Origin: Alloascoidea hylecoeti
Lineage: Eukaryota
DNA length: 64,000 nt
Direction of reading: 5' to 3'
NCBI GenBank assembly: GCA_001600815.1
Contig: BCKZ01000016.1
Span: 547,077 to 611,076, forward strand
The notes below the pieces were generated by a model. It saw nothing but the letters and a program-made list of their open reading frames with translations. It had not been told where the DNA came from and ran no database searches. Below, one piece after another: positions 1,563 to 43,459 of this stretch. The position numbers and the translations under genes were made by a program. Each line of letters starts with the position of its first letter. Position 1 is the first letter of the stretch.

Positions 1563-4500
1563 ATAAGTAATTTTGATTACCCTGCTAGATATCTAGAACC
1601 AGGGTACACTTATATAATAAGTAAAAGGTACAGTTTTGTATTATGTCATGCTGAGGTAAGCACACAATATTATCAAACATGCGCCTATTCACCACGGCAT
1701 AACTAATTAAGCTTTGGGTCAATATTATCAACACCGCTGGCAAAAATGTTACAGGAACCGAAAGGAAAACAGCAAGTGATCATCCGTAGTGCGAATTAAA
1801 CAATTTGATTAGACTGGATTTTTCCAATTGCAATATTCAACAAACGCGTCCAACAGCGTGTGAAATTTCTTACACCACCAAAGCTGAATATTAATGGAAC
1901 ACCAAATAATGCGATGATCCTAAAGGCGACCATATGAGCATAACAATATTACATGAATTATATATTCTTAAAGAATCTAATTGTATGTCTTATCCTTAAA
2001 ACGAATTATAGTTAGTATTAATTATTTCTATCTATTTGTTCATCCAGAGAAATCTACTGGCTTGAAAGTTTAGTTTAGACAATTGTCGGATATCATGGCT
2101 TATAAAAACACTTAAAGCTCATTAGCTTTTTCAGGATTATTTTCACTGTATGGATATACATGTAGCGGATTAGTAGCTTATAACCGGAGAATAACTTGTA
2201 ATATCTCCCACAGCAATAGCGATATTAGTGTCTATAGCTATACATATAATAAAATCATAAAGAACTGTTATTAGAATTGAATACCAAGGATAGACTACTA
2301 TAGACTATATATTTATAGAATAATGCATACATCTGTGTAGAACAAATTGTCTGAAAGGGAGCCAAACATAATTAGATATCAAACCGCCAATTTGTAAATA
2401 GATACATATAAACTTTACTTGTATTAAAGGGTTCAGCAAAGTATGTTTTAGATGAGCTTTAAAATTCTTAATTCGGAGACTCTTGCTGTTGAAAATGTGA
2501 TCCGTCGACTAAGATTAAAAAAATTATGATAAATGTGGTCAGGAATCCAATTCAATATATCATCTTCACGCTTGGAAAGTTATGAAGTGAATCTGAAACT
2601 TGCCAAAAAAAGGTGAATAAGGTATCATTTCATAAAATTTTCTACGAACTGTTTACAATGTTTCCGCGGCCATTTCCAGCCATCGCAACGCAGGATGTGA
2701 GTTTATTACTTTCTTCGGCGAAACCCTGAAACAATAAGTGTGTTAATTAACATTTTTCATCTATGAGATGCCTTTTGATCGTCTCAATTATAATGGTATA
2801 ACCTTCCGAAGATTTTAGAACGAGATCGATTAAATGTGTGAAGAAAAAAAACCCAACAAGGCAACGAAAGAGATGGTTTAATGATAGGAGCATCAAGTTA
2901 GAGTGAAATAATGAGAAAACCCACAGAAAATTGTGTACTTGGTACATGTACATTGACTACAATAGTTTACAACGTTTCTGCGATGAGTCGTTCTGTGGGG
3001 TTTCTGCTGGAAGTTAAAGGAGATATATATAGAAGCTGCTTTCAATCTTTGTAAACTATGGTATATTCTCAGGGCACTTACCATAGCAAGGAAGTTGAGA
3101 AATTTCTTAACGTGTACCTGGTATACCTTTCATGGTACCTCTATATTACAATAATTTGATATTTCTATGTTGGGGGTCCATATATCCTTTTTCAATGTAG
3201 TCTCGTCTCAGTTTTATACCACCCCAGTGAAAATAGAATTCTCAAAATTTCACAGGTCAGAAAAGCTGGTTCATTCGAAAATAGTATTAGATATAGGCAA
3301 AAATATGCTGGTATATAGAAAATTATGAGTGAATCTGCGATGTTCTTCTTTTTTCTCCCCTCCTAATGGAAAACAGAAACAACTTGTCCCTAATAAACAA
3401 TTGCAAGATTTTGGTACCATTATATTTGGAAAAATTTAGATAGAACTATGAAAAGTGGTTTGAAGTAGTTAAGTCTTATCACTCAGTAAGAAATTTCCAA
3501 AATGATTTCGAACTTTACCAATAGCCTATTATTTATAGATAATACAACACCAAAATCCTGGAATTTCGTTGAAAAACTTAATATATGCATCAATGAGTGA
3601 TATTCTACTATTTCTTTACCTGATAGAAGTACTGAATAAACTGAATAGATGGAGACCTATCCAACAACCGAAAGAAAGAAAGTCTACTCCAATAATGGCA
3701 TAAATAAAAAGCGAAAATCATTGCTATCTAGGTATGATAGGGTAGCTGGCTCTAAATACGATATTTATGCCTTTTGCTTTTGTTTTATCATCCCTAAGTT
3801 TGCTCTGCTATATAAAATTTTAACTGTAAGGTGGGCACTTTGAAATGGAGGCCAATTCTTCTGATAAAGTCCAGAGCCACGTTGTAAATCGCAATTCTTA
3901 TCCTGTTCGACTTAATGTATAATTAAAGAAGATAGCTGTATCTTACACAAACATAGTATACGTATATCTTATGTCAGAAGTTGTGTTTAAATCAATTTAA
4001 TAAAACTATACATGTGTGATTTTAAAGTCCCTATGCAGATAAAGCTTAAGCGATAAGTGACTATACCATTCTAACAACCTTTTAGTATAAATATAAAACA
4101 GAAGCAACGATACCGCTAAGGATATAGGTTTATAATTTTAATTACATATATTATACAAGTTTAATTACAAGAAAATAAAGGAATGGAATGGGAGCTTAAG
4201 GGATCTGCAGCTGATGTCGCACAGAAAAAATGTAGTCCTTGCAATTTCAATTATTATAAATAATCTAATTCAATAATATATATTTTTTAGGATCATACAA
4301 TTTGGTACACAACTATTTGAATTCAATAAGAAACTATATAATAATTAAATCTAATGTTTTATAATATTTCATGACCTTTCAAACTATACACGTAAATTCC
4401 GATTTTTTTATACGTGATAATTATAAGACTTAGGAATGTAATATGGTATTGGTAATATACACCATATTAATTTTAAAATAATCTCTTTTAAACTCAAAGT

Positions 4501-4638
4501 CCAGCAAGAAGAAAAGCGAATCATGAATTCTTATAATTAACTGTATCATTTATGCAGGGACAATTAGTACTGGTACACACACATAATAAGTTTTTGGTAA
4601 TAATCGTTAATTAAAATTATAAGTTATAGGTATACCAT

Positions 4639-4685
4639 AATAACAATAACAATAACAATAACAATAACAATAACAATAACAATAA
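4639..4685. repeat. (AATAAC)7+ microsatellite
   Basis: Seen directly. Confidence 0.95.
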
Positions 4686-5642
4686 TATTAATAATATTGA
4701 TTTTATGATATTAATAATAAAAATATATAACAATAATAAAAATCTATAACGGGTCAAATAAAATCATAGGAGCTAACTTGATGGGGTGATAATTATATTG
4801 TATCTATTTGTTTCATTAAATATCACATTCATTTTTAATTTGATCCTGATATTTTCTTGGCCAATATTAATGTAAATGAATATAATCTCAACAGCAATTA
4901 TACAACCCGTATATGGCTTTATATAAACTTTATACGGTGTAGCTATAGAATATACAAATATAATACCGTTGTAAAGTTTTGTAGATGTATTTACTGGACA
5001 TCATTTGCAACAACACCTTAAGTAACAACTCTATTGGAGCCGTAGCTGATTACTCAAAACAACTATATCGCGATAACTTTAGGCATCTCTATTCGTTTTC
5101 AGATGTATTTAAATTTATGGCCAAAAAATTTCATTAATATTGGTAATACAAATTAGTTATACTGAACAATAGCGGGTGGGGGTAAAAATTACAATTATAA
5201 GAAATTTTTTATATAAATTATATAATAGATAACTACAATATACCTGCTACATAATACTTTAAAAAATTAATCAACTTCCTCAAATTTACTCTATAATAAC
5301 GAGTCTCTACTAATATGATCTATTTAATTTCTAATTAAGTTGTGGCATTGCTGAGAAGAATGATTTAAAGTACATATATATTTATGATACAATTATAAGC
5401 TCATAAAACAATCAATATCACTTTAGAATTATATATAAATTATTTAGTCATATTCCTATATCAATGAGCATGATTTGCGGACTAATTATCAATTACATGA
5501 AAAAGTTCATGAATATATATAATATGATATATGGTATATATAATCCGGCCGCAATTGTGTAATATTATAATTGTGCTCGCTTGATAAAAAGCGAAAAAAC
5601 CTGATCATGATTATGAGTTTAAATTGATATTCTTATATATGC

Positions 5643-5735
5643 TGTTAAAGTTCAAAGTGCCTGTTCTACCAGTTGCGCCAAAAAGCCAATCGACTCTTTA
5701 GTGAACTGTTCTAAGAGTGTAATATATATCCAACA
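5643..5735 (-). repeat. 3' LTR of the TRIM
   Basis: 93-bp copy preceded on the minus strand by the PPT (5736-5747). Confidence 0.95.
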
Positions 5736-5905
5736 CACCCCCCAACCTTAGGCAGGTCACTTTACTAATCGCCATATCTGCTCACCCCCGTGATCTTGCG
5801 GGTTTCGGACTTCTTGCAGACTGACTCGGACATTTTACTTTCGGGCCATTTATGCGTTACCCTACTAAGCCTCAACTAGACTGATGTAAACTACCGTCCT
5901 ACGGC

Positions 5906-6031
5906 GGACTCGAACCTGATGCCTCTCGTGGCGGCGCCGCTACCATGTTAAAGTTCAAAGTGCCTGTTCTCCCAGTTGCGCCAAAAAGCCAATCGACTCT
6001 TTAGTGAACTGTTCTAAGGGTGTAATATATA
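5906..6031 (-). promoter_or_regulatory. Putative RNA polymerase III type-2 promoter within the TRIM (TATA + A box + B box)
   Basis: Minus strand: TATATATT 6031-6024, A box TGGCGCAACTGG 5983-5972, consensus B box GGTTCGAGTCC 5916-5906. The A-B gap is 55 nt. Confidence 0.75.
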
Positions 6032-6038
6032 TCCAACA
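5946..6038 (-). repeat. 5' LTR of the TRIM
   Basis: 93-bp copy beginning TGTTGGATATATATT on the minus strand, followed by the PBS at 5945-5938. Confidence 0.95.
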
Positions 6039-9000
6039 TATGCTACTATGATTATTCAAAGCCAATTGAAAGTAGTTACTCTATACGGAATCGAAGTTTA
6101 CAGTTACAACCCACATATTTGCCTATATAATATATCTATATAAATGTAGGGCGATATAATTCTGCTGCACTGGCTCTTAATTTAAAAAATATATCTTTTC
6201 AATTTGAAGGATAAATCTATAAATCTATAAACTTATATATCTAATATTTTAATATAATTATAAGTTTATCAATCGATTATACGGTATGTGTATTTACACT
6301 ATTTATTAAGTGTGTGGCCATGGGGTCGAGTTAGTAATTTTAATCATTCAATATTAATTAACATATAACATACTGGTAATCCATAAATACATGTATGTGT
6401 AACTACCTATAATTACATGTAACTTATATTTAAATATAGTTACAGCTACCGTTATATACAATTATAACTTCAATACGTCAGTAATTGACAGCTGCAGAAT
6501 ATCAAATACTATTCAGTGGAGTAAATATGATGTCCCATATTACTTAATTAATCGGAGATACAAATAAGGTTGCATTGGTTATATTCTTTAGATGTACCCA
6601 TAAAAATAATCAGTGAATACCTGAGGCGCGTTCATAAACGTTCAGGTACATACATTTTGCTACAACAGTTATATAAAAAATTATCCCCTTAACTTATAAT
6701 TTAATTAAGGTACCAAATTTCAATTTAAAGGAATATCATACACCTTTTCAAATGCATTTGATCATAGATCTTGATGTATTAAATGTCTGCATTCCACCGG
6801 AAGAAGTCCGACTCGAACTCCGGACGCCCCTATGCCCTCAGCATTGCAACGATGCCCCTACCAACAAGTCAGAAGTTCATCCGAGTTGTTAATATTTATC
6901 ACCAACTTGGACTAACATCTCATTCTAGCATATATAGCATTATACATTGTATACAATAGTTCAGTTGTTATGTACATCTTTGTTTCACTTAGAACGCCAT
7001 TTTAATATCAACCTCGAAATCTTGATAAACTTTATTTGAGAATATCATCGAAACCTCATTAAATTTAACCATTAGATATATAAGTGACTCGGCTTGATTA
7101 CAGATCCAAAGCAATATCTTGTCTACTTGGTCGGAGCAGGTTGTACCTAGCTATGTATAGTACTGCGTTTGGCTTCATTACAAAACCAATGTGATGACCT
7201 ACTGTATGTATCAATTAAATTTTAAAAAATCTGGGGAAGGAACAGTAACTCAACAGTGCTAGCACGAAAGGGTATCAAAGCATATGAAGCTGTATTACTT
7301 ACTCCTAAGCTTTTCTTATCTTCGAATTCTATTTATAAATATATAGAATAAAAAATAAAGACATGGCAGATCACTGTCGATAATTATACTAATGGTCCCA
7401 CACTATGACATTAATTATACATAACGACTGCAGTGAATTTAACGCCTGATACGTAACTGAGATGTCATCGGAATTGGTCAAGAATTTCTATTATTGGGTT
7501 TTGAGGAGACTCAATACCAATTTCAAGTTATTTTAAAGAAAATATATTGGAAAAGAAGAATGTCATGTTATCGTGCATGTTATGAAAGAGGTGTTATCAA
7601 AATCAATACCGGATTATTATTTTTACCTGTTTTGGGACAAGTTCACTTCGGATAAACCTTGTGATGAGGTGGAAAAAATTTAAAGCTACATTTACCGTTC
7701 TGATTTTCAAAACTTTGTTTCTAGTACCTGAATCAATTCAAATCTTAATTTTCATTTATTAATGTATAAATGTATAAGGATTAAATTTAAATGCTTTTTT
7801 TATTTCAAATACCTGTACTCATTCAAGAATCTCATTTAATCATAATTTTAAGCTTCCATTTCGTGTTGCTGTACGTATAATGTATTATATTATAATTCTT
7901 GGAATAATACTAGCGATTAATTAAGTGAAATTCCGCGCCATGGTCTGTGGAATTGTTTCTGCTTAGTTTTAAATTTTTCAGTGTGTGTCTCATACCTTTG
8001 AGAAGTATTTTTATGAAAAAGGAAATATATATCTGTTTATGAAAATTTTCACAGTTGGAAGGCTAAGGAAAATTCGTTTTAAGGAACAGAATATATATAT
8101 GTGGCATATGTTTCGGAGGATCCATATCTGTTTAACTCATCAACTTTAAATATCGATGTACATTTGATGCTCGGTTTACAGATTAGTAAAATACAAATAC
8201 GCATCCGTATTCAAGCAGATCTATATATGTAAAATTAGGTTATTCTTATATTTTTCTATTGAGTTATTTGGAATAGAAATAATTTTCCATTTAACTTCAA
8301 TATTATCTGACTATTTTTATAATTTGTGACATTCAGAAGCAAAATAACTGGATGTTTAAAGTAACATTTTAATCTATATTTAGCTCGATAAGACCCATAA
8401 TTGGAACGGCTTCCAAATGTACAGTGAATAGTAGATATCTCAACATTTTATTTATCTAATTTTACATTTTCATATATATTTTTATTTCTAAATTGTTTCA
8501 ATCGGCTTGTGATTACTAGTTTCAATTGATATATGCATTTCCTTTTCTCATATAATCGCAATTGCGAAAACTGTTTTTTTATAAAGACGATCTAAACTCG
8601 ATTCATATTTATTTATAAGAATGTTAACTCAATACGGCTTTGAGCCATTTATTGCTGCCTATCACCTTTAGATACGGGCAATTTTTAACACGTGCACAAA
8701 ACTTTTTATTCATCAAGCTTGAACAAAATTATATATATTATTCGTTGCAGGAAATTAATTAATCCAAACTTATTATGCTGGTGTCAACAAGGCTGACTTA
8801 GCTAATATAATTATGATCTAAATAATGGTATAATTAATAATAATATACTCAAATGAACCTGTATAGAAAATTTCCTAGACAGGTACCTGGTGTCTTATGT
8901 GCATATCTAATATTACCCTAGCTGGTAATGCATGGATAGTATATAGCCAATTGTAAGTGATAATATATATTATAACGTTGTAATTATCTATGATCAAAAA

Positions 9001-11391
9001 ATTCAGAACCGAATGACTATCAGGTGTCCTATACGGTATACAATTAAGGTGTTGTATATTACAATGTTATAGTTTCCTCCATACCCTTACAAGTTACGTA
9101 AATCTTTATTCAGTTTAGTCTTGCTATTGCGATTGTCATTCTAGGATTTATCTAGGATTATAGTTACTAAGCCATATATGCATATCAGATAAAGTGGGTC
9201 AATTGAACTTTTCAATGGATGCATATTATGGATCAATGTGTGTCCCATTAATATTTAGATCTGAGTATGAGGTCATTAATAACATATATCGATATTGATG
9301 GAGCTCGAGGAGACAATTGAAAATAGTTTTTTTATAAAAAGAATTCGAACAATTTATATGATTTGTAGTCTTAAAATAGTATAAATAATTTTATATATTA
9401 ATAACCTTAAGCTATAGATACATGTATATATAAGATCTTATAGGAGTTTTATTAGGATTCAGGAACCCTATCACTGAGACTTCGGCGGCCGTGAAATTAT
9501 GTTATCTAAAAATATACATGCAAAATTTGAGAGCAAGTACGTCTAGATCTGTATCTATCAAAATTTTTACATCTCTCAAAGCGACATTTAGGCGGCATAG
9601 TATAGTGCATAGTTATTCAAGGGCCAACATGCAAGGAGACAAACAACTGCAACTGCAGCACATAGTAGTATGTGCATGCCACTACATGATCATGATGAAC
9701 CTAAAGATACATTCATGACCATAATAAATTATCACGTTAACACTTAGGCCTGGCCTTTCAGTGTTGTTATTTTCAATATTATCCACTTTATCCGAACCGG
9801 ACAAATAGACCGGAATACAATTGATTAACAATATGCTTACTATCTAGAAGTCAATATAAGCTCAAATTAGTAATTAACTGCTAATATTAATATTAATAAA
9901 AATATAACTATTGTAGTTCTAGCTGTATACTTAAACAGTTTTTTAATTTAGTGAGATATATAGATATCCTATATACGAGTCATACGGTAAGATACGGAAT
10001 TCCAATTGCAATATTAATAATATCTATAGCTTGAGTAATAGCTAGCCATAGCTAGTCAAGGGACTCAAGGCTTAAGCTTGCATTCGATGTTTAATTTATA
10101 ATTGACTGCTTCTTGACACAGAAGTGACACAATTCAAAAATTACAATTGCAAGCTTTTACGATATCTCGATTCTCGAGCGCTAATATATATATACTAAAA
10201 GCGGCTATACTTTAAAAGTAATAGCAGAATCTAAGTTTAGTAAACGGATATGATTGTACATATATAGCTACATATTTCAGGAGTTTAGTTAAAGAATATG
10301 TCAAAAATCCATAAAACTTAAACTGGAGCTGAGGGCCAATGAGCTTTCTAAAACGTTCCTTGCCGACATTCTCAGTCGCATGACATGGAAAAGAAACACA
10401 GGGGCAATGATGGTGGGTGAATATTATTGGAAATCCGTAAGCGAATAGAGGGTGTTAGCGAAAAAGAAAGCCACAGTTAGGATAACGCATATGGATGGTT
10501 TACGCACAAGGTAGGAGCAAAGAAAAAAAAACAGAATATAATTGTCTTCATTTGGATGGTGAAAGTGCCTGTAAGATTCTCTGGTATGGAATAATTTTGA
10601 CAAGCCTGAGGGCATTTTCGAGACACAAAACCAGTTAGAAAATTGAAGGATATCGATACACTCGTACGACGAAGTGAAGCTTCAGGTATGCTATATGCAA
10701 GAGCAAAAAGTGTAGGTGCAACAGGCCGGATCCGGGCAGAGAGTTCAGCCGGTCAATCCAATCAACGTACCGGCATGGCAGGGGCGGGAGGAAAATAGAC
10801 GGACGCATGGGACGACGGGGATGGAAAAGGGAGTGCCTTGCAGGCGCAACATGTGCATACTGCAGAGTGTATGCGGCCGATATGCAACCTGCAGGTGGAT
10901 CTGATTGTGAGAAGCAAGATCCGGTCAGCCTTACATATGCGGTACTGCAGAGAAAGAACTCTGACTGTGGGAGGTTTGGGACAGCGACGACACGAGGGTT
11001 GGGACTCCACCCGACCGTGGGGGTACAGGAGACACGGGGGACCTAATTGGATCGTCAGCCTGCAGCAGCCCAGCAGCCTAGTGGCCCTCGGCCCGGGATC
11101 CAAGAGGCCGCAGACCTTGCACGACCCTTGGAGTAGGTGGATCTGTCATTTTTGCTGTCCTCCGCAGAAGTATCAGTTATCCTTGCAACCACTCTCGAAC
11201 CGATCGCCTTTCGTCCCGCAGAAGTTATTATATACCAGCTCAACACCCTGAACCGTCTGAACGACATTTATATACTTCGCAAAAACTTCCCTCTTTCCAT
11301 CACATCTTTCAGAAAAACAGCCCCTTACCACTCCTGACATAGAATAAGCTTTCTCTTCCAACCTCCTCTGGTATAAAAGCGACTACTGTCA

Positions 11392-13587
11392 ATGTCAAAC
11401 AGCTCCTTTCCGTCTCTTGCTGCTGAAAATACACTCTCGTCTGATATGTCTCTCTGGGGCCCGGCCAGTTCAACCACCACCACCGTTAACCCTTCAAAAG
11501 ATTCTACCACAATCCCTCTAATGGGCTCAGATTTAGGAAGCTTTATTGGAAACTCACAACACAACCACGACCTATCGGCTCGCTCTTTCATGTCCTCCCC
11601 CTCTTCCATCTCTTCAACCTCTCGTCCACCTCTCACTAGACCCCCAGTAACGGCCAGTGTGACAATCGGTGACCTCTATTCCGCTAACAGCGGGCCCAAA
11701 CACTATTCGTCAGGTTTCCCTTCAAATGTAATCGACAGCAGCATTAATCTCGCGGCTGCCTATCATACCGGCCTTTCGGATCATCTAAATCACTCCACCC
11801 AACCAGACGGCTCCCTGAAGTATTCTTCACTAAGTGCAGACCTTCAGCACTCAAGCGCTCAATTCTCTCATGATATTACCAACCCGTTGGTTGAACATCA
11901 TCATTATCCACCAGGAACACATCATGAGAAACCACATCAAAAGAGAAAACGTGCCAATTCCGATCAATTGAGAATCTTACAGCAAGAATTTGAGAAAAAT
12001 CAAAATCCGCCTACTTCAGTGCGGAAACAAATCAGTGAGGCGATAGGTATGCCAGAACGCTCTATTCAAATTTGGTTTCAAAATCAGAGAGCAAAAACTA
12101 AGAAAAAGAAGATATTAAAGTTGAGCAACATGAACGGTAATGGAGATCTCTCCAATTCAATGACTTCGTCTGCTTATGGACGCAAAAATAGTCAAAGTAG
12201 TGCGGGTTATGACGATGATCTCGAATTCGGTCATTTAAAAAGAGTGTCAAGTCTCCAAAACAGTTCTTCTCAAGCCTTCAGTGATTTGGGTTATCAAGAT
12301 CCTTTTTCTTACCCTCTTTCTCGCTCTCCGTCAGCAAATATAGCCCCTCCTTTTTCTAGGAATAGAAACTCTATTTCGAGCATAAAGCCACTGAGATCTT
12401 CTAGATCTAATAGTAGGATTAGTCCCATCACAAATTCTAATGTCTATTCAGCACTTCCTCTAGGTGATCCAATTCAGCTTTACCAACAAAATTATTATCC
12501 AGCAAGTATCCCCATGCGTCCAAGTATATCCGATAATGCTTCTTCCATGAATTCGGAGAGAGCATATGGTGGGTATAACTCTCAAATTTTGACTACGTCT
12601 CCGTTTTCATTGGAAATGCAACTAGAGTTGAAAAATAATCACCCGAAACAACTCGAATCTCCTTTACTATCAACCGGGTCTGTGCAAGCATCACACGGAT
12701 TTACCCGTTCTCCTTCTATAACTTCATACCCTTCTTCAGCTACCTCAAACTCCTTTAATGGAATTCTACCGGCTCCAAATCTCCAATCTTTAAGGAGACC
12801 CCAATTTTCATCATACTTGGATAATCTTGCTTCTTATTCTTCAGCACAGAAGTCAAATCAAATTAATTTGCCAGGCTATAATGGTAGCGTTGAGTCAATG
12901 CAAACAATGAAATCGAGCAATTTAATTCCGGTCGGAATAAATAGCCTATGTATAGGTTCATGGAGGCGTATCCGATCACCAGAAACTAAAGTTCTTACCA
13001 CTGTTTCTTCAAATGTCCTTGAAGATCCCACTGAAATTTTAAAGTTGATGACCACCAATAACCTGGTTATGCTAGTTTCTCTATATGACTCTACAATCGT
13101 TTATCTTTTCAAAGTTGAAGACAGTAATAATTCGAACAAATCCCCAAATATTAGTGATGTGTCTAACAAAATTATCAATGATGAAACTAGTTCAAGTTAC
13201 ACAGATCAAATGATATTTAAAATTTCGTATCTATTTGATCATGTTAGTTCAGTTAATGTCAAGTCTTCGATTCCAACGGACGGCTTAATGACCGGAGAAG
13301 AAACAATAGCTGATCTCAATATCACTTTAAATCAACCTCCTTCTTTTCATATTCACTACCCGGCTTCATCACAACACGATGAAGAAAATTTGGGCCTGGT
13401 TGGAGGGAATCAATTCTGGAGCCACGCAGATGATTTCTCAGAAGGAAGACAAGCTTCTGCTGCGTTTGAGCAAATTAATGGAGGATCTGGTGCTAGTCAT
13501 GTTATTTCAGGCACGAACTTATCAAACTTACAGTTAATATCTTCTGAGATTACGAACTATAGGCTGAAACAACGATCCCAGGCTTAG
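11392..13587 (+). CDS. Homeodomain transcription factor, Hoy1/Pah1/Phx1 type
   Basis: 731-aa ORF with homeodomain QKRKRANSDQLRILQQEF...RSIQIWFQNQRAK. C-terminal SLCIGSWRRI and DFSEGRQAS motifs resemble the Pah1/Hoy1 group. Confidence 0.85.
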   Translation: MSNSSFPSLAAENTLSSDMSLWGPASSTTTTVNPSKDSTTIPLMGSDLGSFIGNSQHNHDLSARSFMSSPSSISSTSRPPLTRPPVTASVTIGDLYSANSGPKHYSSGFPSNVIDSSINLAAAYHTGLSDHLNHSTQPDGSLKYSSLSADLQHSSAQFSHDITNPLVEHHHYPPGTHHEKPHQKRKRANSDQLRILQQEFEKNQNPPTSVRKQISEAIGMPERSIQIWFQNQRAKTKKKKILKLSNMNGNGDLSNSMTSSAYGRKNSQSSAGYDDDLEFGHLKRVSSLQNSSSQAFSDLGYQDPFSYPLSRSPSANIAPPFSRNRNSISSIKPLRSSRSNSRISPITNSNVYSALPLGDPIQLYQQNYYPASIPMRPSISDNASSMNSERAYGGYNSQILTTSPFSLEMQLELKNNHPKQLESPLLSTGSVQASHGFTRSPSITSYPSSATSNSFNGILPAPNLQSLRRPQFSSYLDNLASYSSAQKSNQINLPGYNGSVESMQTMKSSNLIPVGINSLCIGSWRRIRSPETKVLTTVSSNVLEDPTEILKLMTTNNLVMLVSLYDSTIVYLFKVEDSNNSNKSPNISDVSNKIINDETSSSYTDQMIFKISYLFDHVSSVNVKSSIPTDGLMTGEETIADLNITLNQPPSFHIHYPASSQHDEENLGLVGGNQFWSHADDFSEGRQASAAFEQINGGSGASHVISGTNLSNLQLISSEITNYRLKQRSQA

Positions 13588-37002: not shown

Positions 37003-39724
37003 ATGTCCGACAGTCCTCAAAGACCAACTAAAAAGTCTCGGAACAGAACAGCCATCTCTTGTACGATATGCCGCAAACGAAAAGTCAAGGTATGCTACAA
37101 ATGTTAATAAATTAGTGAAATCTATAATAATTATAAATATAATATATTTACTAATATGATATCATCGACTTTAGTGTGACCGTGGGAGACCGTCATGCTC
37201 AGCATGTGCCAAAGCTGGAATCACCTCGCTGTGTCGGTACGAAGAGCCGGTGTGGATCAAACTTCACCAGCAAGAAGAGAAGAAGACTACTGAAGTAGAA
37301 AGTGCTCTTCTGGAAGAAGTAAAGTTCCTGAAGGAAAGAATAAAAAGACTTGAGAAATCTTCCAGTTCAGTCCCCTCACCTGCTATCCCAATGACACCAG
37401 TAGCTACACATTTGCATTTGCCTAGCCCTACACCTTTTGTGGTTCCACCATCGTCGGTGCCGGTATCGGTTGCCTCTCAACAGTTCTCTTTACCTCCTAT
37501 CAGACCCTTCTTGAATGAATCACTGAATGTAAAAGGTTCTCAAACTACAAATAATCACAACTTAGATCTTTATGGACTTTATAGAAATCAACAACCTCTA
37601 GATGTAATAGCAAGTAATGAAAGGATGAATAGAGCCGAATTTAATCCTGAAATTTCTATTGCAAAAGAATTCTCAAGGCTTATTAGAAGAGGAAATAACT
37701 ACCGTACAAAATATTGTGATCCGCTGAGTTATATGGGCACAATTACAAACGATAAAGTGTTAGATGCTGCTTTCGTGAGGCTTATTCACAAGTTTCAATT
37801 CGTACAAAAAGGAAAACTCCAAGAACGCTTTAGATCACATCTTGAACGAGAATTTGAAAGAAAACACGTTAAATTATCCTTTGTTTTGAATGTACAGAAC
37901 AGGGATGAAACTGATCTAGTAAAGCAAGTTGAAAAACTTCTGCCATCGAGAAAAATCATAGATTTATACTTGGAACGTTATGCCGATTGTCTCTATTACA
38001 ATTATCCTATAATTGATATGGTATTATTCAAAGAAAAATTGGATATTATCTTGGGTACAGAAGATCAGGTTAAAATTGAAATCCCTTCAAATAATGTTAA
38101 TCTTGATTTATGTGCAATTCTGGCGAACCTTCTTATTATAATGCGTATATCATATATGACTATCCCTCCTAAAGATGATATTTCTTCATCTTCATCTAAA
38201 CAAGCAGTGTCAGAAGCAGATGACCCAGATACTCTTGATTCCCTTCGTGAACAAGCTATAGGTTCTACCTATGTTGAACTAGCAAGAGAATGTCTTTCAA
38301 ATTATAAGTTTAGGAGAACATCACTGGATGTTATTCAAAGTTTAACATTCCTAAGGATATATGTTATGCTTGCACCAGAAGATGGAGATGGTTGTGACGG
38401 ATCTGATAGTCAGACATTAATGGGTGTAATCACAAGAATGGCAGTTGGATATGGACTTCACCGGGATCCTGATAATTTCCAATATATTAAATCTGAAAGG
38501 ATAAAACATATTAGAAGAAAACTTTGGCATCAAATAATCTTTTTTGATGCTCTCCAAGCAATAAGACTTGGTAGTTTACTGTGCTTTGAAACCGAAGATT
38601 ATTGTGATACTTGCTTGCCGAAATTGTCCCCACCTTATGTAAATGATAACTCGGAAATTTTTGTTTTGAAATCCTATAATATGAGATATGAATACTATGA
38701 AATTCTTCGGGAGACTGCCCGTGTTTTACTTAGAATGAAGAATCCCCCTACAAAAACTGACATTGAAGCTCAATTGGGAAAATTGAAAAGATTTCATGAT
38801 TGCTACATTCACTTTCATGGTGCCCTTTATGATTTCAAAGAGAATGATTCAACATGTACACTTGGCCGTAAAGCCGGAGAGTTAATTTCTTCATTGACAA
38901 TTAAAACATTGATTGCCTCTGTTCATTATTTGGTATTTTTAAACAGTGAAAAGAACTTAAAGGATTATGATATTAAACATTTTCAGGATGCTCTAACTTT
39001 ATCCTTAGAGATTTCAGAAATTGTCAACACCAATTTAAAGAATGAGAATGGTTATATTCCTCATTTTATTGAATTTTTGATAATTCCTACATTATTAATA
39101 TCGGCACATCGTGTCCTATTGTTTTTTGCCACACTAATTATGAGATATCTTACCAAGACTGGCCCTTTTGTACCACTACAAAGAGAAGGGTGTATTGGAA
39201 ATGGTTCCTTTTTGGAGCTTGATATTAATGAATATAATTTGATTTGTGAACATTATAGAGAATTGGTTGGAACGATCAAAACTATATCATCTAAATATGT
39301 CCATGCTTGGAAATTGATTGTATCATTTGAGTCTATGATAACTGAAATTAATGATAACGCTAAGGATGCTGGAATGCCTCCAATCATGACATTACCTTCT
39401 ACCCATTGGACTCTGACCGAACCTAACAATGCTCAGTGTTGTAAAAAACTCAATAAAATTGCAGATTTTACATCAGATAAAAATGAAAATGATAATGATG
39501 TTCACCAATTAAGTCCAGAACCAATAACAGGAAATGCAATCAGTGATTCTTCATATGTATCAGTTCATAATCATGATGAATTGTATCCTTTTAATTTTGG
39601 AAATAATGGGGGTTCCTTATGGTTAGATCCATTTAATTATGATGTTAATATCTATGATGATTCGAAGGAATTTGGGCTCGACGAAGGAATCGGGACTTTT
39701 ATTTCCCAACAACAAAGTTGGTAG
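37003..39724 (+). CDS. Zn2Cys6 transcription factor, Mrr1/Hap1-like (copy A), intron 37090-37174
   Basis: Exon 1 MSDSPQ...SCTICRKRKVK, intron GTATGC...TACTAAT...TAG, exon 2 CDRGRPSCSACAKAGITSLCRY in frame with the 824-aa ORF. Middle homology region LAPEDGDGCDGSDSQ...GLHRDP. Confidence 0.9.
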
Positions 39725-40810
39725 TTTATTTAAATTTGTTACAATATAAGAAAATATATATGGTTGATGTATTAAAGAGATTGACACTTTAGAACTTTGA
39801 TTTTATTTACTCGTACTATAATATAACAATAATTTATTGTAGAAAAGGATAACATTATATGGGGTAAATGCCGAAATTGGTTTATGAATGGTTAAATCGA
39901 TGAAATGAGTTTGTCTTAAACAACCAGATACATTTTGTAACTGATAGAAATGACGGATAAATTATTTAGAACTTACAAAAGACGTTTATCGGATTGCATA
40001 TAGGATATCCTCATCATATGCGATAAAAATTCAAAACGTATGAATATATTTTGTTTATTTTGTACACCAATACTTGCATTTAACATTATACCGCGCGTAA
40101 ATGGCTCTCCAATGTGGCGAATTCAGAGTGGAAAAACTATATAAAAATGATAAATGGTGCTATTAAGCATATTTCATAATCAACAACATCTATTCCAAAT
40201 GCATAATCGATAATATCAGTTTGGAGCATCTCTGAACACCATACGTAATATCATGATTCATGACTATCTTTCGCAAGCAATCTCCCGAATGAATACCTTT
40301 ATTCTAAAGATTTTCAAAAACGTCTTTTCAGAGTACTAGTTGCCACATAGGGTCGACACAAGACTTACATTTTCACCCAATCTATTTCAAACCAAATTCA
40401 AAGGCATTTTTTGTCCATCTTCTAATCATGCGGTAATGAATTTAAATATCTCATTATACCATGATTATAGGCGAGTTAATGTATAGTATTATTAATTGTA
40501 TCAACTTGCAATTGGCTATCATAGAATTTTTCATCTATCATGATCATTATTACTTGTTTGTAAAATATCGATATTATAGATCACAGTACATGATTAGGCA
40601 ACATAACATCATCAATGGAATTCATAACTTATCGAATATTACCCGGTTTAACCTTAATTAGACCATAAAAGACCACAAAAAGTTTCTGCGGAAACATCGG
40701 TTGACCATATTTATGTAAGTTAGTAAGATTTATAATTAATACGCTCAAGTTTATTTTTGATAATTTCTAAAAATTTAAAACCAACCTGTCCACAATTGCA
40801 AAATTAAAGG

Positions 40811-43252
40811 ATGGCAAAAACTCATGTTCTTCCTAAATCCTGTTCCATCTGCAGGAGGAGACGAGTCAAGGTACGTTATGTATACGAAATATAATTATAA
40901 TTAGTAGTAAATCATATTAATCATCCTATTTAGTGTGATAGAAAATGTCCGTCTTGTACCAACTGTTTAAGACTAGGCTTTTCACACGTTTGTAAATATT
41001 ACGAACAAGAGAGAGAGGAAGATAGGCTTAAGGCGGAGAATATAGAATTTACCAAAAAGATAGAACAACTAGAGTTGATATTAGAAGAACAAAAAAAATA
41101 CAAGATAAAACAAGAACAAAATGCATCAGAAGCAAATGATCCTGCTTTGATGATTTCAAATTTTCAGACACTACAAGTGGGAGATGGAACAGCTGTTCAT
41201 TATGGAGCAACTTGCAGCTACACATTTTTAACTAAAGATCCAGTTCTTATTGAAGTTTACAACGCATTTATGAAAGCCAAGTTCAATATTGAAAGAACCC
41301 GTGGAGTTGAAATTACTCCAGTGAAACCTTCAATGTTTTATACGTTAGGGTACTCTTCGAAAGCAGGACAAGATATCCGGAAAGAAATTCTTAATAAAGT
41401 CGAAACTATGTTGCCTGATAAGCCCATGTGTGATTTAATAATGAAAAATTTCTTGAGCATTTCCTCTGGGATGTGGCCTTTTCTTGATATCTCATATATC
41501 ACTTCAGATTTTAGAAATATCACTGATATTACTCCAGATAATAGATACAAATTTAGACTTGATGACGATTCATCATGTATAATATTCTGTATATTCTTGG
41601 TGGTTTTAAGATTGGGATATGTGACGCTTCCATTCTTTTATGGAGAAGGGAGCAAAATTCTTTCAAATCCCCAATATTCAATTTATAAACCATTGATGGA
41701 TAATAATGTGAAATTAAGTCCGGAAATCGTTCAAGTAGCTGAAATGATGTTTTCATCCGTTTCAAATAATCAAGCAGATTCTGCATCTTTTCAATTCTTA
41801 TTGTGTTTAATAATATATCGAATTGGATTCTCGGGTGATCATTATAGAATGTCCAACTCCTATAATAGCAGAATGCTACTAGCAAGAATCATACAAACTG
41901 CAATTATTATGGGATACCATAGAGATCCAGATATTATTATGCCAAATGCGCCTGCTGAAATTAAGAACATGAGAAGAATCTACTGGACCTTTTTGATTTT
42001 CATGGATAGTCAACAATCATTTTTATATGGGAAGCCATTGATTGTAAATAAGCGTATGACCGATACAAAAAAACCGGTAATGTACCCTGAATATCAGCAA
42101 TCTCAATCAAAAGCTAAATGGATTGAATATTATCAGCTTCTACATGAAATGACACCATGCTTTCAAGATGGAACTGAATTAATTTTGGGACTAAAGAATC
42201 GACTACATAATTCAGATTTAGAAAACCTCTCAGATAGAATATTGAAATTAATCAATTCCCAGCTTACTCCTGCGGCCGAGATTGTCAATCGATTAACAAA
42301 TGGTGATTATTCTCTGAAATCAAGTGATATTAGACAGCTTTTATGTCGAACAGTATTAACTTCACAATATCATGCTTGTTATTATATCATGTATATGAAT
42401 TGTAGTGAAGATGAAAGAGAACTTCAACATCATTATTTGAAGCGCGGATTATGCGCTGCTGTGGTGAACCTTAGGCTTTCGGCAATTATTCTACAAACTT
42501 GTCAACAAACCTATTCATATGCTATGCTTCCTTATTTATGTTCTATACTTTTATTGAACATGAATAGAGCTTTGTTATTCATTATATCTATTTTCATAAG
42601 GTCACAAAAGGAGGAGTATAGGTTTTCTATACATCCCATGAAACCATTATATCAACCAATTGATATTGTGGATCTTGGACTTGATACTGAAGTGGAACCA
42701 TATGAAAAGTCACTATTATATTATCCAAAGTTGCTTTATGAACTATTACATACGTTTTATGGAAAGAATACCATAACATTCGCATATTCAACAGTCATTT
42801 GGGTTCTTATTGGTGTCGCTGAAAGAGGAATACATCAAAAGGACTTAGAATGGGAATTAGGCCCACTAATTAACGGTCTTATGAATCAAAGTTTGGGAGA
42901 TGAGAAGCGGGAAATTAACAAGCAGTATCCAGAGGTGATAGAAACTCAAAGACATTCGTATACCAATCCTACTATCAATACTAATAATAATTTTATAAAA
43001 ACCGAGAATAATAATAATAATAATTATAAGGAATTTACCTATGCTTCGAATAATCCATATACGCATGCTCCAATCGTTGATTCACTACCTACAGACTCTC
43101 AGTATTGGGAAGGATTATACTACGATGATGAATATGTTGACATGATTGATTACAACTCAACGAGACCTCTCGTTTCTGATCTCTTTGCTCAACCAGATGT
43201 TTTGGGCTCTTTCTTGTACCAAGGAGATGATGGGCCTCCCCAGCATTTATAG
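40811..43252 (+). CDS. Zn2Cys6 transcription factor, Mrr1/Hap1-like (copy B), intron 40871-40933
   Basis: Exon 1 MAKTHVLPKSCSICRRRRVK, intron GTACGT...TATTAAT...TAG, exon 2 CDRKCPSCTNCLRLGFSHVCKY in frame with the 725-aa ORF. Contains the GYHRDP motif. Confidence 0.9.
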
Positions 43253-43459
43253 ACATTATATATTTTAGGGTAGTTGTATTATATTTTGCATTTTTTGATA
43301 ATTAATACTTTTTAGTATGTATCTGCAGCAATCAAAAAAGGCGATTTCCAGTTGCCACTTACCATTACCCTACCTTTTTCTCTGAAATAAGACATATACA
43401 CTTAAATAACAGTTCGCTCGATTATATCAGAAGCCTGTACTTCTTCTCTCTACTTTACC

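What the first reader, a model, noticed from the sequence alone, without database searches (positions are those of the whole stretch)
5680..6031. TRIM carries a split tRNA-type Pol III promoter: A box in the LTR, B box beyond the PBS, T5 terminator in the LTR
Seen on the minus strand: TATATATT (6031-6024); a pyrimidine-A step at 6003/6002, 29 nt further on; A box TGGCGCAACTGG (5983-5972) starting 19 nt after that A; and a perfect B box GGTTCGAGTCC (5916-5906) 55 nt past the A box. The 3' LTR copy reads TGGCGCAACTGGTAG, like a tRNA D-arm. The only run of four or more T on this strand of the element is one T5 per LTR (5987-5983 and 5684-5680). Known: TATA near -30, A box near +20 and A-B spacing of 30-60 nt is the geometry of yeast tRNA-type promoters. 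As I recall, Pol III TRIMs such as Cassandra (5S-derived) and Helenus (tRNA-like) keep the promoter inside the LTR. Inference: only the 5' LTR has a B box downstream, so only it should fire. That predicts a ~320-nt RNA from ~6002 to the 3' LTR T5, with a 15-20 nt R region for strand transfer, while solo and 3' LTRs stay silent. This would be a SINE-like promoter built into an LTR element. Caveat: the polymerase must read through the promoter-proximal T5.
Basis: partly seen in the sequence, partly recalled or inferred. Interest (0 to 1): 0.92.

Follow-up and report, generated by a model that had tools for sequence, protein, structure and literature searches.

The report
Miniature yeast retrotransposon with tRNA-type promoter motifs
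A real 396-base miniature LTR retrotransposon in a budding-yeast genome carries motifs arranged like a tRNA-gene promoter split between its repeat and its interior, which could mean it is copied by RNA polymerase III, but nothing beyond the motifs shows this yet.

Summary
Window 5643-6038 (minus strand) is a complete TRIM. It has 93-bp LTRs (91/93 identical), TG..CA ends, a 5-bp duplication GCATA, PBS TGGTAGCG, a purine tract and no ORF.

Contigs of three studies show the family is repeated and recently active. The interior appears as an exact high-depth contig, and the LTR at far higher summed depth.

Statistics are mixed. The perfect B box is rare by chance (41 of 200,000 shuffles). The A-box match is loose (6 in the window against 7.2 expected). 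The lack of T runs is not significant. No tRNA-like fold or Rfam match exists, so this is motif geometry, not a tRNA-derived module as in Helenus.

No RNA data, genome or sequence of other copies could be obtained.

Verdict: Pol III transcription from a split promoter is the single most likely reading (about 0.4) but untested. An ordinary Pol II TRIM is nearly as likely. If true, it is a new variant of the known TRIMp3 kind (Cassandra, Helenus, Ajax) and the first in Ascomycota among the papers I read.

The parts
6039..6043 (-). target-site duplication GCATA, upstream copy
   Evidence: the same 5 nt directly flank both LTR ends
5946..6038 (-). 5' LTR, 93 nt, TG..CA ends
   Evidence: repeat family D1, 98% identity
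6024..6031 (-). TATATATT. Candidate TFIIIB/TATA element 22-29 nt before the proposed start. Equally a Pol II TATA box or a yeast 3'-end efficiency element.
   Evidence: Function inferred. TA-repeat length varies among copies (indels at 6022-6026).
5983..6002 (-). Proposed R region (20 nt), from the proposed start to the end of the T5. It can fold as an 8-bp hairpin AAAGAGUC-GAUU-GGCUUUUU.
   Evidence: Hairpin seen in the folds. The start site is inferred, not shown. Copies vary at 5999-6011.
5983..5987 (-). T5 run in the 5' LTR; it must be read through under the Pol III model
5972..5983 (-). A-box-like TGGCGCAACTGG
   Evidence: The loose pattern occurs at chance frequency in the window (6 found, 7.17 expected).
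5938..5945 (-). primer-binding site TGGTAGCG, directly after the 5' LTR
   Evidence: Its match to the 3' end of initiator tRNA-Met is recalled and was not tested with this organism's tRNA.
5931..5940 (-). Perfect 10-nt palindrome GCGGCGCCGC overlapping the PBS; possible dimerisation or stem element
   Evidence: Read. One diverged copy changes 5931 and 5933.
5906..5916 (-). perfect B-box consensus GGTTCGAGTCC, 55 nt after the A box, with no flanking T-stem
   Evidence: only perfect match in the window. (41 of 200,000 shuffles). No variant listed at 5895-5922.
5736..5747 (-). polypurine tract GGTTGGGGGGTG, abutting the 3' LTR
5643..5735 (-). 3' LTR, 93 nt
5680..5684 (-). T5 run in the 3' LTR; proposed Pol III stop
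   Evidence: Function inferred. The next T runs (T6, then T5) lie 44 and 53 nt past the element.
5638..5642 (-). target-site duplication GCATA, downstream copy

Best explanation
Window 5643-6038 (minus strand) is a complete, non-coding, recently amplified terminal-repeat retrotransposon in miniature (TRIM) of a budding yeast. It must be copied in trans by an LTR retrotransposon whose reverse transcriptase starts from a tRNA annealed at TGGTAGCG.

- TFIIIC binds the perfect B box in the interior and the A-box-like site in the 5' LTR.
- TFIIIC places TFIIIB over the TATATATT stretch.
- Pol III starts near 6002.
- Part of the polymerases pass the weak T5 at 5987-5983. They stop either at the same T5 in the 3' LTR (a ~320-nt RNA with a 20-nt terminal repeat) or, my amendment, at the first T run in the flank, which gives a longer R.
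- Because the B box lies beyond the PBS, solo LTRs and 3' LTRs would lack a full promoter.

Shown: the element's anatomy, the motifs and their geometry, and the family's repetition. Inferred: every step that involves TFIIIC, TFIIIB, Pol III, the start site and the stop site.
For: - TRIM anatomy. No frame of 50 aa or more overlaps the element.
- Perfect 11/11 B box on the sense strand: 41 of 200,000 shuffles. It is the only perfect match in 64 kb.
- A-box-like motif in the 30-60-nt window upstream: 149 of 20,000 shuffled LTRs.
- A TATA-like stretch 22-29 nt before, and the A box 19 nt after, a pyrimidine-A step. This matches the recalled geometry of yeast tRNA genes.
- U3 would be only 36 nt, which suits a promoter that lies inside the transcript (inference).
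- Precedent: TRIMs with Pol III promoters exist. Cassandra is reported to start in the 5' LTR and end in the 3' LTR with an 18-bp terminal duplication. Lengths run from 311 to 1263 bp (PMC10886601; PMC7215508).
- The family is active. In run X1 an exact 156-nt contig of the interior (5805-5960) has depth 1537.7, against 56-62 for the low-depth contigs I take as single-copy. The same pattern holds in X2 (142.7 against 5.8-11.9) and X3 (184.6 against 8-17.5).
- No variant is listed inside either box of the 5' half (5972-5983, 5906-5916). One diverged copy (record 4, 11 other letters and 17 gaps over 5771-5978) shows no listed variant within the B box.
Against: - No RNA evidence of any kind could be obtained.
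- ARAGORN finds no tRNA. Rfam finds nothing, even at E<=10 over 5500-6200.
- By eye the B box has only 2 of 5 T-stem pairs and the A box no D-stem. So there is no sign of descent from a Pol III gene, unlike Helenus, Ajax and Cassandra.
- The A-box pattern is loose: 6 in the window against 7.17 expected.
- Absence of other T runs is uninformative: 11,432 of 20,000 shuffles also lack one.
- The same T5 must be passed at about +16 to +20 and yet used 303 nt later.
- The near-identity of the copies means that box conservation carries almost no weight. With 11 substitutions in 208 nt, one diverged copy sparing an 11-nt box is expected about half the time.
- One single-copy contig in X2 carries a change inside the 3'-LTR A box (5678).
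- LTR pieces reach 30-90 times the summed depth of the interior. Most LTRs are therefore solo or belong to other elements. If a long autonomous element shares this LTR, the LTR must also work with Pol II.
- TATATATT, an A-rich stretch, the T5 and a CA step also read as a yeast Pol II TATA box and 3'-end signal (recalled knowledge).
Confidence: 0.4

Rival explanations
1. Ordinary Pol II TRIM. The LTR's TATATATT is a Pol II TATA box in the 5' LTR and an efficiency element for 3'-end formation in the 3' LTR. The A-rich stretch, the T5 and the following CA are the positioning, U-rich and cleavage elements. The A and B boxes are chance, or a relic of a captured tRNA fragment, with no present role.
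For: - Most TRIMs are thought to use Pol II ('TRIMp2' in PMC10886601).
- The A-box pattern is at chance frequency.
- No tRNA-like structure.
- T-run depletion is not significant.
- The LTR is far more abundant than the interior, as expected if it is shared with, or derived from, Pol II-driven elements.
- The reading of the yeast polyadenylation signal rests on recalled knowledge, not on a call.
Against: - A perfect B box at tRNA-like distance from an A-box match has a joint chance near 1.5e-6 for one element (41/200,000 times 149/20,000).
- A 93-nt LTR leaves at most about 50 nt for all upstream Pol II control.
- A strong TFIIIC site about 87 nt into a Pol II unit would be expected to hinder it (inference).
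Confidence: 0.33
2. The tRNA-like motifs serve reverse-transcription priming rather than transcription. As in Ty1 (Box 0, 1 and 2.1 within 6-58 nt of the PBS) and Ty3 (bipartite PBS), sequences near the PBS and in the LTR pair with further parts of the initiator tRNA or help package it.
For: - Ty1 and Ty3 use extended tRNA-iMet contacts with the T and D hairpins (PMC5454406 passages; PMC5371799 passages).
- The B box starts 21 nt after the 8-nt PBS, and a perfect 10-nt palindrome overlaps the PBS.
- By hand, against the S. cerevisiae initiator tRNA as I recall it, the 22 nt up to and including the B box run colinear with the reverse complement of its variable-loop and anticodon-arm part. They share one exact 7-mer and about 65% identity with three gaps. 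This comparison was run through no tool.
Against: - The B box is in the tRNA's own sense, not its complement.
- By hand it gives at most 5 contiguous pairs with the recalled initiator T arm, which is no better than chance.
- The organism's own tRNA-iMet is not in the window, so nothing could be tested.
Confidence: 0.1
3. The B box is a TFIIIC-only site (like yeast ETC sites) carried by the element. It binds TFIIIC without productive Pol III transcription and acts as a chromatin boundary, or attracts insertions of a Pol III-targeting partner. The element's RNA is made by Pol II.
For: - A perfect B box without a T-stem fits a DNA-level rather than an RNA-level motif (the stem check was done by eye).
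- ETC sites and Pol III-directed targeting of Ty elements are recalled knowledge.
Against: - It does not explain the A-box match and the TATA spacing.
- No tRNA gene lies in the 64-kb window, so this copy at least did not land next to a Pol III gene.
Confidence: 0.1

Closest known systems
Cassandra (plant TRIM with a 5S rRNA-derived Pol III promoter and terminator in the LTR)
   Same: Short non-coding LTR element with PBS and PPT. Transcript proposed to start in the 5' LTR and stop in the 3' LTR, leaving a very short terminal repeat: 18 bp reported, 20 nt predicted here (PMC10886601; PMC7215508).
   Different: Cassandra's promoter is type 1 (box A and box C of 5S) and lies wholly inside each LTR, with clear 5S homology. 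It is 565-860 bp long and found in plants. Here the motifs are tRNA-type, split across the LTR/PBS boundary, without homology to any RNA gene. The element is 396 bp, in a budding yeast.
Helenus (TRIMs with a tRNA-like sequence in the LTR; 'TRIMp3')
   Same: A and B boxes of tRNA type in a TRIM; 5-bp duplications in fungi; 311-1263 bp long; function only inferred from sequence (PMC10886601).
   Different: In Helenus both boxes sit in the LTR within a recognisable tRNA-derived stretch. Fungal Helenus is reported only from Pucciniales and a few Agaricomycetes, and mostly uses anticodon-loop PBSs. Here only the A box is in the LTR, the B box lies after a 3'-end-type PBS, ARAGORN and Rfam see no tRNA, and the host is an ascomycete yeast.
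Ajax (nemertean TRIM with a partial 5S promoter in the LTR)
   Same: It keeps only the promoter part of a small-RNA gene, about 420-430 bp long, with many more LTRs than interiors (1114 against 151) (PMC10886601).
   Different: 5S type, promoter inside the LTR, in animals.
Ty1/Ty3 of S. cerevisiae (tRNA-iMet-primed LTR elements with extended or bipartite PBS)
   Same: A PBS that begins like theirs (recalled), a 5-bp duplication, TG..CA ends, and G:C-rich palindromes implicated in dimerisation of the primer complex (PMC5371799; PMC5454406).
   Different: Those are 5-6 kb, coding and Pol II-transcribed, with LTRs of more than 300 bp. No gag or pol is here.
SMART (292-bp grass LTR element, reported as the smallest)
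   Same: Extreme miniaturisation of an LTR element (PMC3281118, abstract in the search listing only; mentioned in PMC10886601).
   Different: No Pol III motifs are claimed for it; plant host.

Membership tests
TRIM (terminal-repeat retrotransposon in miniature) | Two direct terminal repeats with TG..CA ends flanked by a target-site duplication | tested here: met
   93-nt LTRs, 91/93 identical. GCATA on both sides.
TRIM (terminal-repeat retrotransposon in miniature) | PBS after the 5' LTR and polypurine tract before the 3' LTR | tested here: met
   TGGTAGCG at 5945-5938 and GGTTGGGGGGTG at 5747-5736. The tRNA assignment is recalled.
TRIM (terminal-repeat retrotransposon in miniature) | Under about 1 kb and no coding capacity | tested here: met
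   396 nt. No stop-to-stop frame of 50 aa or more overlaps it.
TRIM (terminal-repeat retrotransposon in miniature) | Multiple dispersed copies | tested here: met
   238, 213 and 176 contig pieces were laid in X1-X3. There are many different loose flanks, and an exact interior contig at about 10-25 times the depth of contigs I take as single-copy. Depth is not a strict copy number. Only one copy lies in the window.
TRIMp3 (Cassandra / Helenus / Ajax) | [quoted passage not shown] | tested here: not met
   No tRNA by ARAGORN. No Rfam match at gathering score or at E<=10. No D-stem or T-stem by eye.
TRIMp3 (Cassandra / Helenus / Ajax) | Complete Pol III promoter inside each LTR | tested here: not met
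   The LTR holds only the A-box-like motif. The B box is at 5916-5906, beyond the PBS.
TRIMp3 (Cassandra / Helenus / Ajax) | Transcription by RNA polymerase III | not testable with these tools
   No RNA run was listed. Needs RNA mapping, ChIP or mutants.
tRNA gene or tRNA-derived SINE | Cloverleaf or a recognisable tRNA-related head | tested here: not met
   By eye the would-be acceptor stem pairs 3 Watson-Crick and 2 G-U of 7.
Type 2 (tRNA-type) Pol III promoter | B box GGTTCGANTCC and A box TRGCNNA..GG 30-60 nt apart, start about 20 nt before the A box | tested here: met
   Motifs and spacing. This is a sequence match only. The consensus patterns are recalled.
Type 2 (tRNA-type) Pol III promoter | No terminator between the start and the intended end | tested here: not met
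   A T5 lies at about +16 to +20 of the proposed transcript. How strongly a T5 stops Pol III in this yeast is unknown.
Ty1-type extended PBS | Short boxes after the PBS complementary to the T and D hairpins of the primer tRNA | not testable with these tools
   The family feature comes from PMC5454406. The organism's tRNA-iMet is not available.

The most novel reading that the evidence does not exclude
This is the first Pol III-driven LTR element of an ascomycete yeast. It is also the first in which the tRNA-type promoter is split, with the A box in the LTR and the B box beyond the PBS. Reverse transcription rebuilds a working promoter only at the 5' end of a full element. The hundreds of solo and 3' LTRs stay promoter-dead: a SINE-like promoter that is self-limiting by design, assembled from motifs rather than captured from a tRNA gene.
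Probability: 0.35. Interest if true: 0.78.

Novelty: new variant of a known kind. Interest (0 to 1): 0.58.

Why it matters
If the split promoter works, three things follow.
- LTR elements could acquire Pol III expression without capturing a whole small-RNA gene.
- The TRIMp3 class would extend from plants, basidiomycetes and animals to budding yeasts.
- It would offer a 396-bp system, testable with conserved yeast Pol III machinery, for two questions. One is how an LTR element deals with a terminator that sits in both LTRs. The other is how TFIIIC sites spread through a compact genome.

If it does not work, the element is still a clean, recently active TRIM, among the shortest described, in a yeast lineage with few close sequenced relatives.

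Tried and rejected
- **Whole genome.** None is held for this window, so no genome-wide copy census was possible.
- **Earlier notes of the scan.** Nothing by sequence, place, relatives or words.
- **Sequencing runs.** No RNA holder was listed. This says nothing about expression.
- **Read laying.** The flanks 5540-5623 and 6044-6140 had no cover in any of the 4 runs, although the runs hold about 0.9 of the sampled words. No conclusion was drawn. Neither the empty site nor an insertion polymorphism could be examined.
- **Metagenome contigs.** The U5-end 24-mer gave 0 matches. The 21-mer of the LTR core gave 2 loci (L001, L002). Both match only those 21 nt in 48-49% GC contigs, so they are chance hits.
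- **Viral contigs.** 0 matches for an interior pattern and for an LTR pattern.
- **tRNA and RNA-family searches.** ARAGORN found 0. Rfam found 0 at gathering score over the window and 0 at E<=10 over 5500-6200.
- **Folding.** The proposed 323-nt RNA has z = -1.13 and its first 123 nt z = +0.49, so there is no significant structure.
- **T-run depletion.** Not significant.
- **Bacterial-type promoter and terminator scan.** Irrelevant and at chance.
- **Taxonomy.** A search with the pyrophosphatase ORF gave only coarse placement. Apart from the window's own protein, the best hit is 63% identical and unnamed. Named hits are 52-56% identical and mostly various budding yeasts, with some other fungi.
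- **Literature.** Friant 1996 (PMC145666) is not held. I therefore could not obtain a tool-given tRNA-iMet sequence and ran no test of complementarity.
- **Cloverleaf by eye.** Rejected: T-stem 2 of 5 pairs, D-stem 2 of 4, acceptor stem 3 Watson-Crick plus 2 G-U of 7.
- **Primer read-through.** I considered that the B box is the trace of plus-strand read-through into the primer tRNA. I rejected this because that would leave the reverse complement, not the sense motif.

Full report
**1. What is there**

Read on the minus strand, window 6038-5643 is a textbook miniature LTR element.
- Two 93-nt direct repeats, 5946-6038 and 5643-5735, differ at two positions.
- Each repeat begins TG and ends CA.
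- The pentamer GCATA flanks both ends, at 6043-6039 and 5642-5638.
- TGGTAGCG follows the 5' LTR at once (5945-5938). As I recall, this is the start of the primer-binding site used by Ty1 and Ty3 for the 3' end of initiator tRNA-Met. I could not test this with the organism's own tRNA.
- A purine tract, GGTTGGGGGGTG (5747-5736), abuts the 3' LTR.
- The 210-nt interior holds no stop-to-stop frame of 50 aa or more.

The element sits in a 10-kb ORF-free, AT-rich gap. The gap lies between a partial ORF at 2-1576 and a homeodomain gene at 11392-13587. The genome's gene content is that of a budding yeast. No tRNA gene lies anywhere in the 64 kb. There is no second copy in the window.

**2.

Every coordinate is right:
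- TATATATT at 6031-6024.
- TA at 6003/6002.
- T5 at 5987-5983 and at 5684-5680.
- TGGCGCAACTGG at 5983-5972 and at 5680-5669.
- GGTTCGAGTCC at 5916-5906.
- 55 nt between the boxes.

The two T5 are the only T4+ runs on the sense strand.

**3. Is it more than chance?**

The B box is.
- A perfect match on the sense strand arose in 41 of 200,000 dinucleotide shuffles of the 303-nt unique part.
- It is the only perfect match in the window. With one mismatch allowed there are 3 matches against 1.81 expected.

The A box is weak evidence on its own.
- The loose pattern occurs 6 times in the window against 7.17 expected.
- Placed 30-60 nt before the B box, it arose in 149 of 20,000 shuffled LTRs.

The lack of T runs carries no weight.
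- 11,432 of 20,000 composition-matched shuffles of the 298-nt body also lack a T4.
- About 11% of all 298-nt windows of this sequence lack one as well.

The joint chance of the two boxes for one given element is about 1.5e-6. Even after allowing for the many elements and motif types a scan looks at, this is not easily dismissed.

**4. It is not a tRNA-derived module**

- ARAGORN finds nothing.
- Rfam finds nothing at gathering score, or at E<=10 with lax filters over 5500-6200.
- By eye, the bases around the B box form 2 of 5 T-stem pairs.
- By eye, those after the A box form 2 of 4 D-stem pairs.
- By eye, a would-be acceptor stem pairs poorly.
- The folds of the proposed RNA are no more stable than shuffles (z = -1.13 and +0.49).

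One local feature stands out. The proposed 20-nt R (6002-5983) folds as an 8-bp hairpin in which the U run pairs with the leading AAAGAG. A perfect 10-nt palindrome, GCGGCGCCGC, overlaps the PBS.

**5. The family**

No genome is held. I therefore laid Logan contigs of four DNA runs from three studies on 5540-6140 at 80% likeness.

The interior:
- In X1 it is present as an exact 156-nt contig (5805-5960, 0 differences) of depth 1537.7. The low-depth contigs that I take as single-copy have depth 56-62.
- In X2 the figures are 142.7 against 5.8-11.9.
- In X3 they are 184.6 against 8-17.5.
- This suggests on the order of 10-25 near-identical copies. The tool warns that depth is not a copy number.

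The LTRs:
- LTR pieces sum to 46,699-149,778 in X1, which is 30-90 times the interior.
- 138 of the 238 pieces laid in X1 are 99% or more alike.
- Loose ends next to the LTR have low agreement (0.5-0.6), meaning many different AT-rich flanks.
- So most LTRs are solo or belong to other elements.

Variants:
- Listed variants cluster at 5999-6011 and 6022-6026 in the LTR, around the proposed start and in the TA repeat. They are also scattered through 5786-5933 of the interior.
- None is listed in 5972-5983 or 5895-5922.
- This has little force, because the copies are nearly identical and few diverged contigs cross the B box. Record 4 of X1 crosses it in full, with 11 other letters and 17 gaps over 5771-5978. 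Record 13 of X2 covers it only in part.
- One single-copy contig in X2 has a change inside the 3'-LTR A box (5678).

The two differences between this copy's LTRs look like private changes, one in each LTR.
- Depth favours the 5' LTR form at the A-box-adjacent site: 149,778 against 2,965 in X1.
- Depth favours the 3' LTR form at the U3 site: 78,143 against 8,631 in X1.

**6. What could not be obtained**

- No RNA run was listed.
- Two metagenome scans gave nothing usable.
- Two viral-contig scans gave nothing.
- The scan's earlier notes gave nothing.

As a result, three things remain unknown: conservation across diverged subfamilies, the autonomous partner, and expression.

**7. Mechanism**

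The Pol III reading is internally coherent.
- All promoter parts would be rebuilt by LTR-type replication. The TATA stretch comes from U3 of the 3' LTR. The A box is in U5. The B box is in the leader.
- Only a 5' LTR followed by the interior would have both boxes.
- The 36-nt U3 suits a promoter that lies within the transcript.
- The predicted 20-nt R matches what PMC10886601 reports for Cassandra: an 18-bp terminal duplication, with the start in the 5' LTR and the stop in the 3' LTR.

Its weak point is the T5 at about +16 to +20, which must be passed once and used once. As I recall, a T5 is a leaky stop for budding-yeast Pol III. If so, part of the transcripts would pass. Those that also pass the 3' T5 would end at the T6 or T5 that lie 44 and 53 nt beyond this copy. 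Such transcripts could still be used for strand transfer, with a longer R.

The main rival is an ordinary Pol II TRIM. In that reading TATATATT, the A-rich stretch, the T5 and a CA step act as TATA box and as yeast 3'-end signal, and the boxes are chance or relic. Two smaller rivals treat the tRNA-like motifs differently:
- as primer contacts of the Ty1/Ty3 kind;
- as a TFIIIC-only site.

I put the Pol III model at about 0.4, Pol II with inert boxes at about 0.33, and the two others at about 0.1 each.

**8. Comparison with what is known**

TRIMs with Pol III promoters are in print.
- Cassandra: 5S-derived and validated.
- Helenus: tRNA-like sequence in the LTR. In fungi it is reported only from Pucciniales and a few Agaricomycetes.
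- Ajax: a partial 5S promoter.
- Together these are called TRIMp3 (PMC10886601: abstract, sections 3 and 4, and passages read; PMC7215508: passages).

All three keep the whole promoter, with recognisable homology to an RNA gene, inside the LTR. The present element fails those two membership features. It may nevertheless work like them.

On whether this is in print:
- A search for TRIM, yeast and RNA polymerase III found 11 papers. By their listed titles and abstract beginnings, none appears to describe such an element in a budding yeast.
- A search for non-autonomous LTR elements in Saccharomycotina listed 12 of 139 papers. Among those 12, none does so by title or abstract beginning.
- The one I opened, on Scheffersomyces stipitis (passages only), mentions LARDs only.
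- These searches cover only the held library, so I cannot say the element is undescribed.

**9. Verdict**

- The element is a real and recently active TRIM.
- The Pol III interpretation is plausible and specific, but rests on motif geometry alone.
- If true, it is a new variant of a known kind.
I score interest at 0.58.

Noticed in passing
window 1577-11376: About 10 kb without any ORF of 150 aa or more, at about 30-35% GC. It lies between a partial ORF (2-1576, minus) and a homeodomain gene (11392-13587). This is unusually long for the otherwise compact gene spacing of the window.
   Followed up: partly
window 10750-11250: A GC-rich island (56-58% GC against about 34% elsewhere), with long overlapping open frames on both strands, just upstream of the homeodomain ORF. 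No Rfam family matches it.
   Followed up: no
window 4639-4702: A short tandem array of AATAAC units about 1 kb from the element.
   Followed up: no
window 5728-5893 (contigs of runs X1, X2): A relative at about three times the depth of contigs I take as single-copy fits only the PPT-side 166 nt (17-18 other letters, 9 gaps). Its contigs then run on for 47-86 nt that do not fit the B-box/PBS side. It may be a longer element, possibly the partner, that shares the 3' interior (records 3 and 11).
   Followed up: no
window 5735 joined to 5941/5945 (contigs of X1, X2, X3): Contigs at the depth of contigs I take as single-copy join one LTR to the next with only 1-5 nt between them: an LTR-LTR junction with almost no interior. 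The shorter side is only 26-27 letters (table 5).
   Followed up: no
window 5967 onward (loose ends in X1, X3): A second LTR subfamily shares the core from 5967 on (A box and T5 side) but has a different U5 end. 4-5 contigs show this, with agreement 0.81-0.82 (table 7).
   Followed up: no
window 5540-5623 and 6044-6140: The unique flanks had no contig cover in any of the four runs, although the runs hold about 0.9 of the sampled words of 5400-6300. Unexplained; possibly a filter.
   Followed up: no
window 37391-46078: Three neighbouring genes on the + strand with the fungal-specific transcription factor domain. One also has a Zn2Cys6 cluster domain.
   Followed up: no
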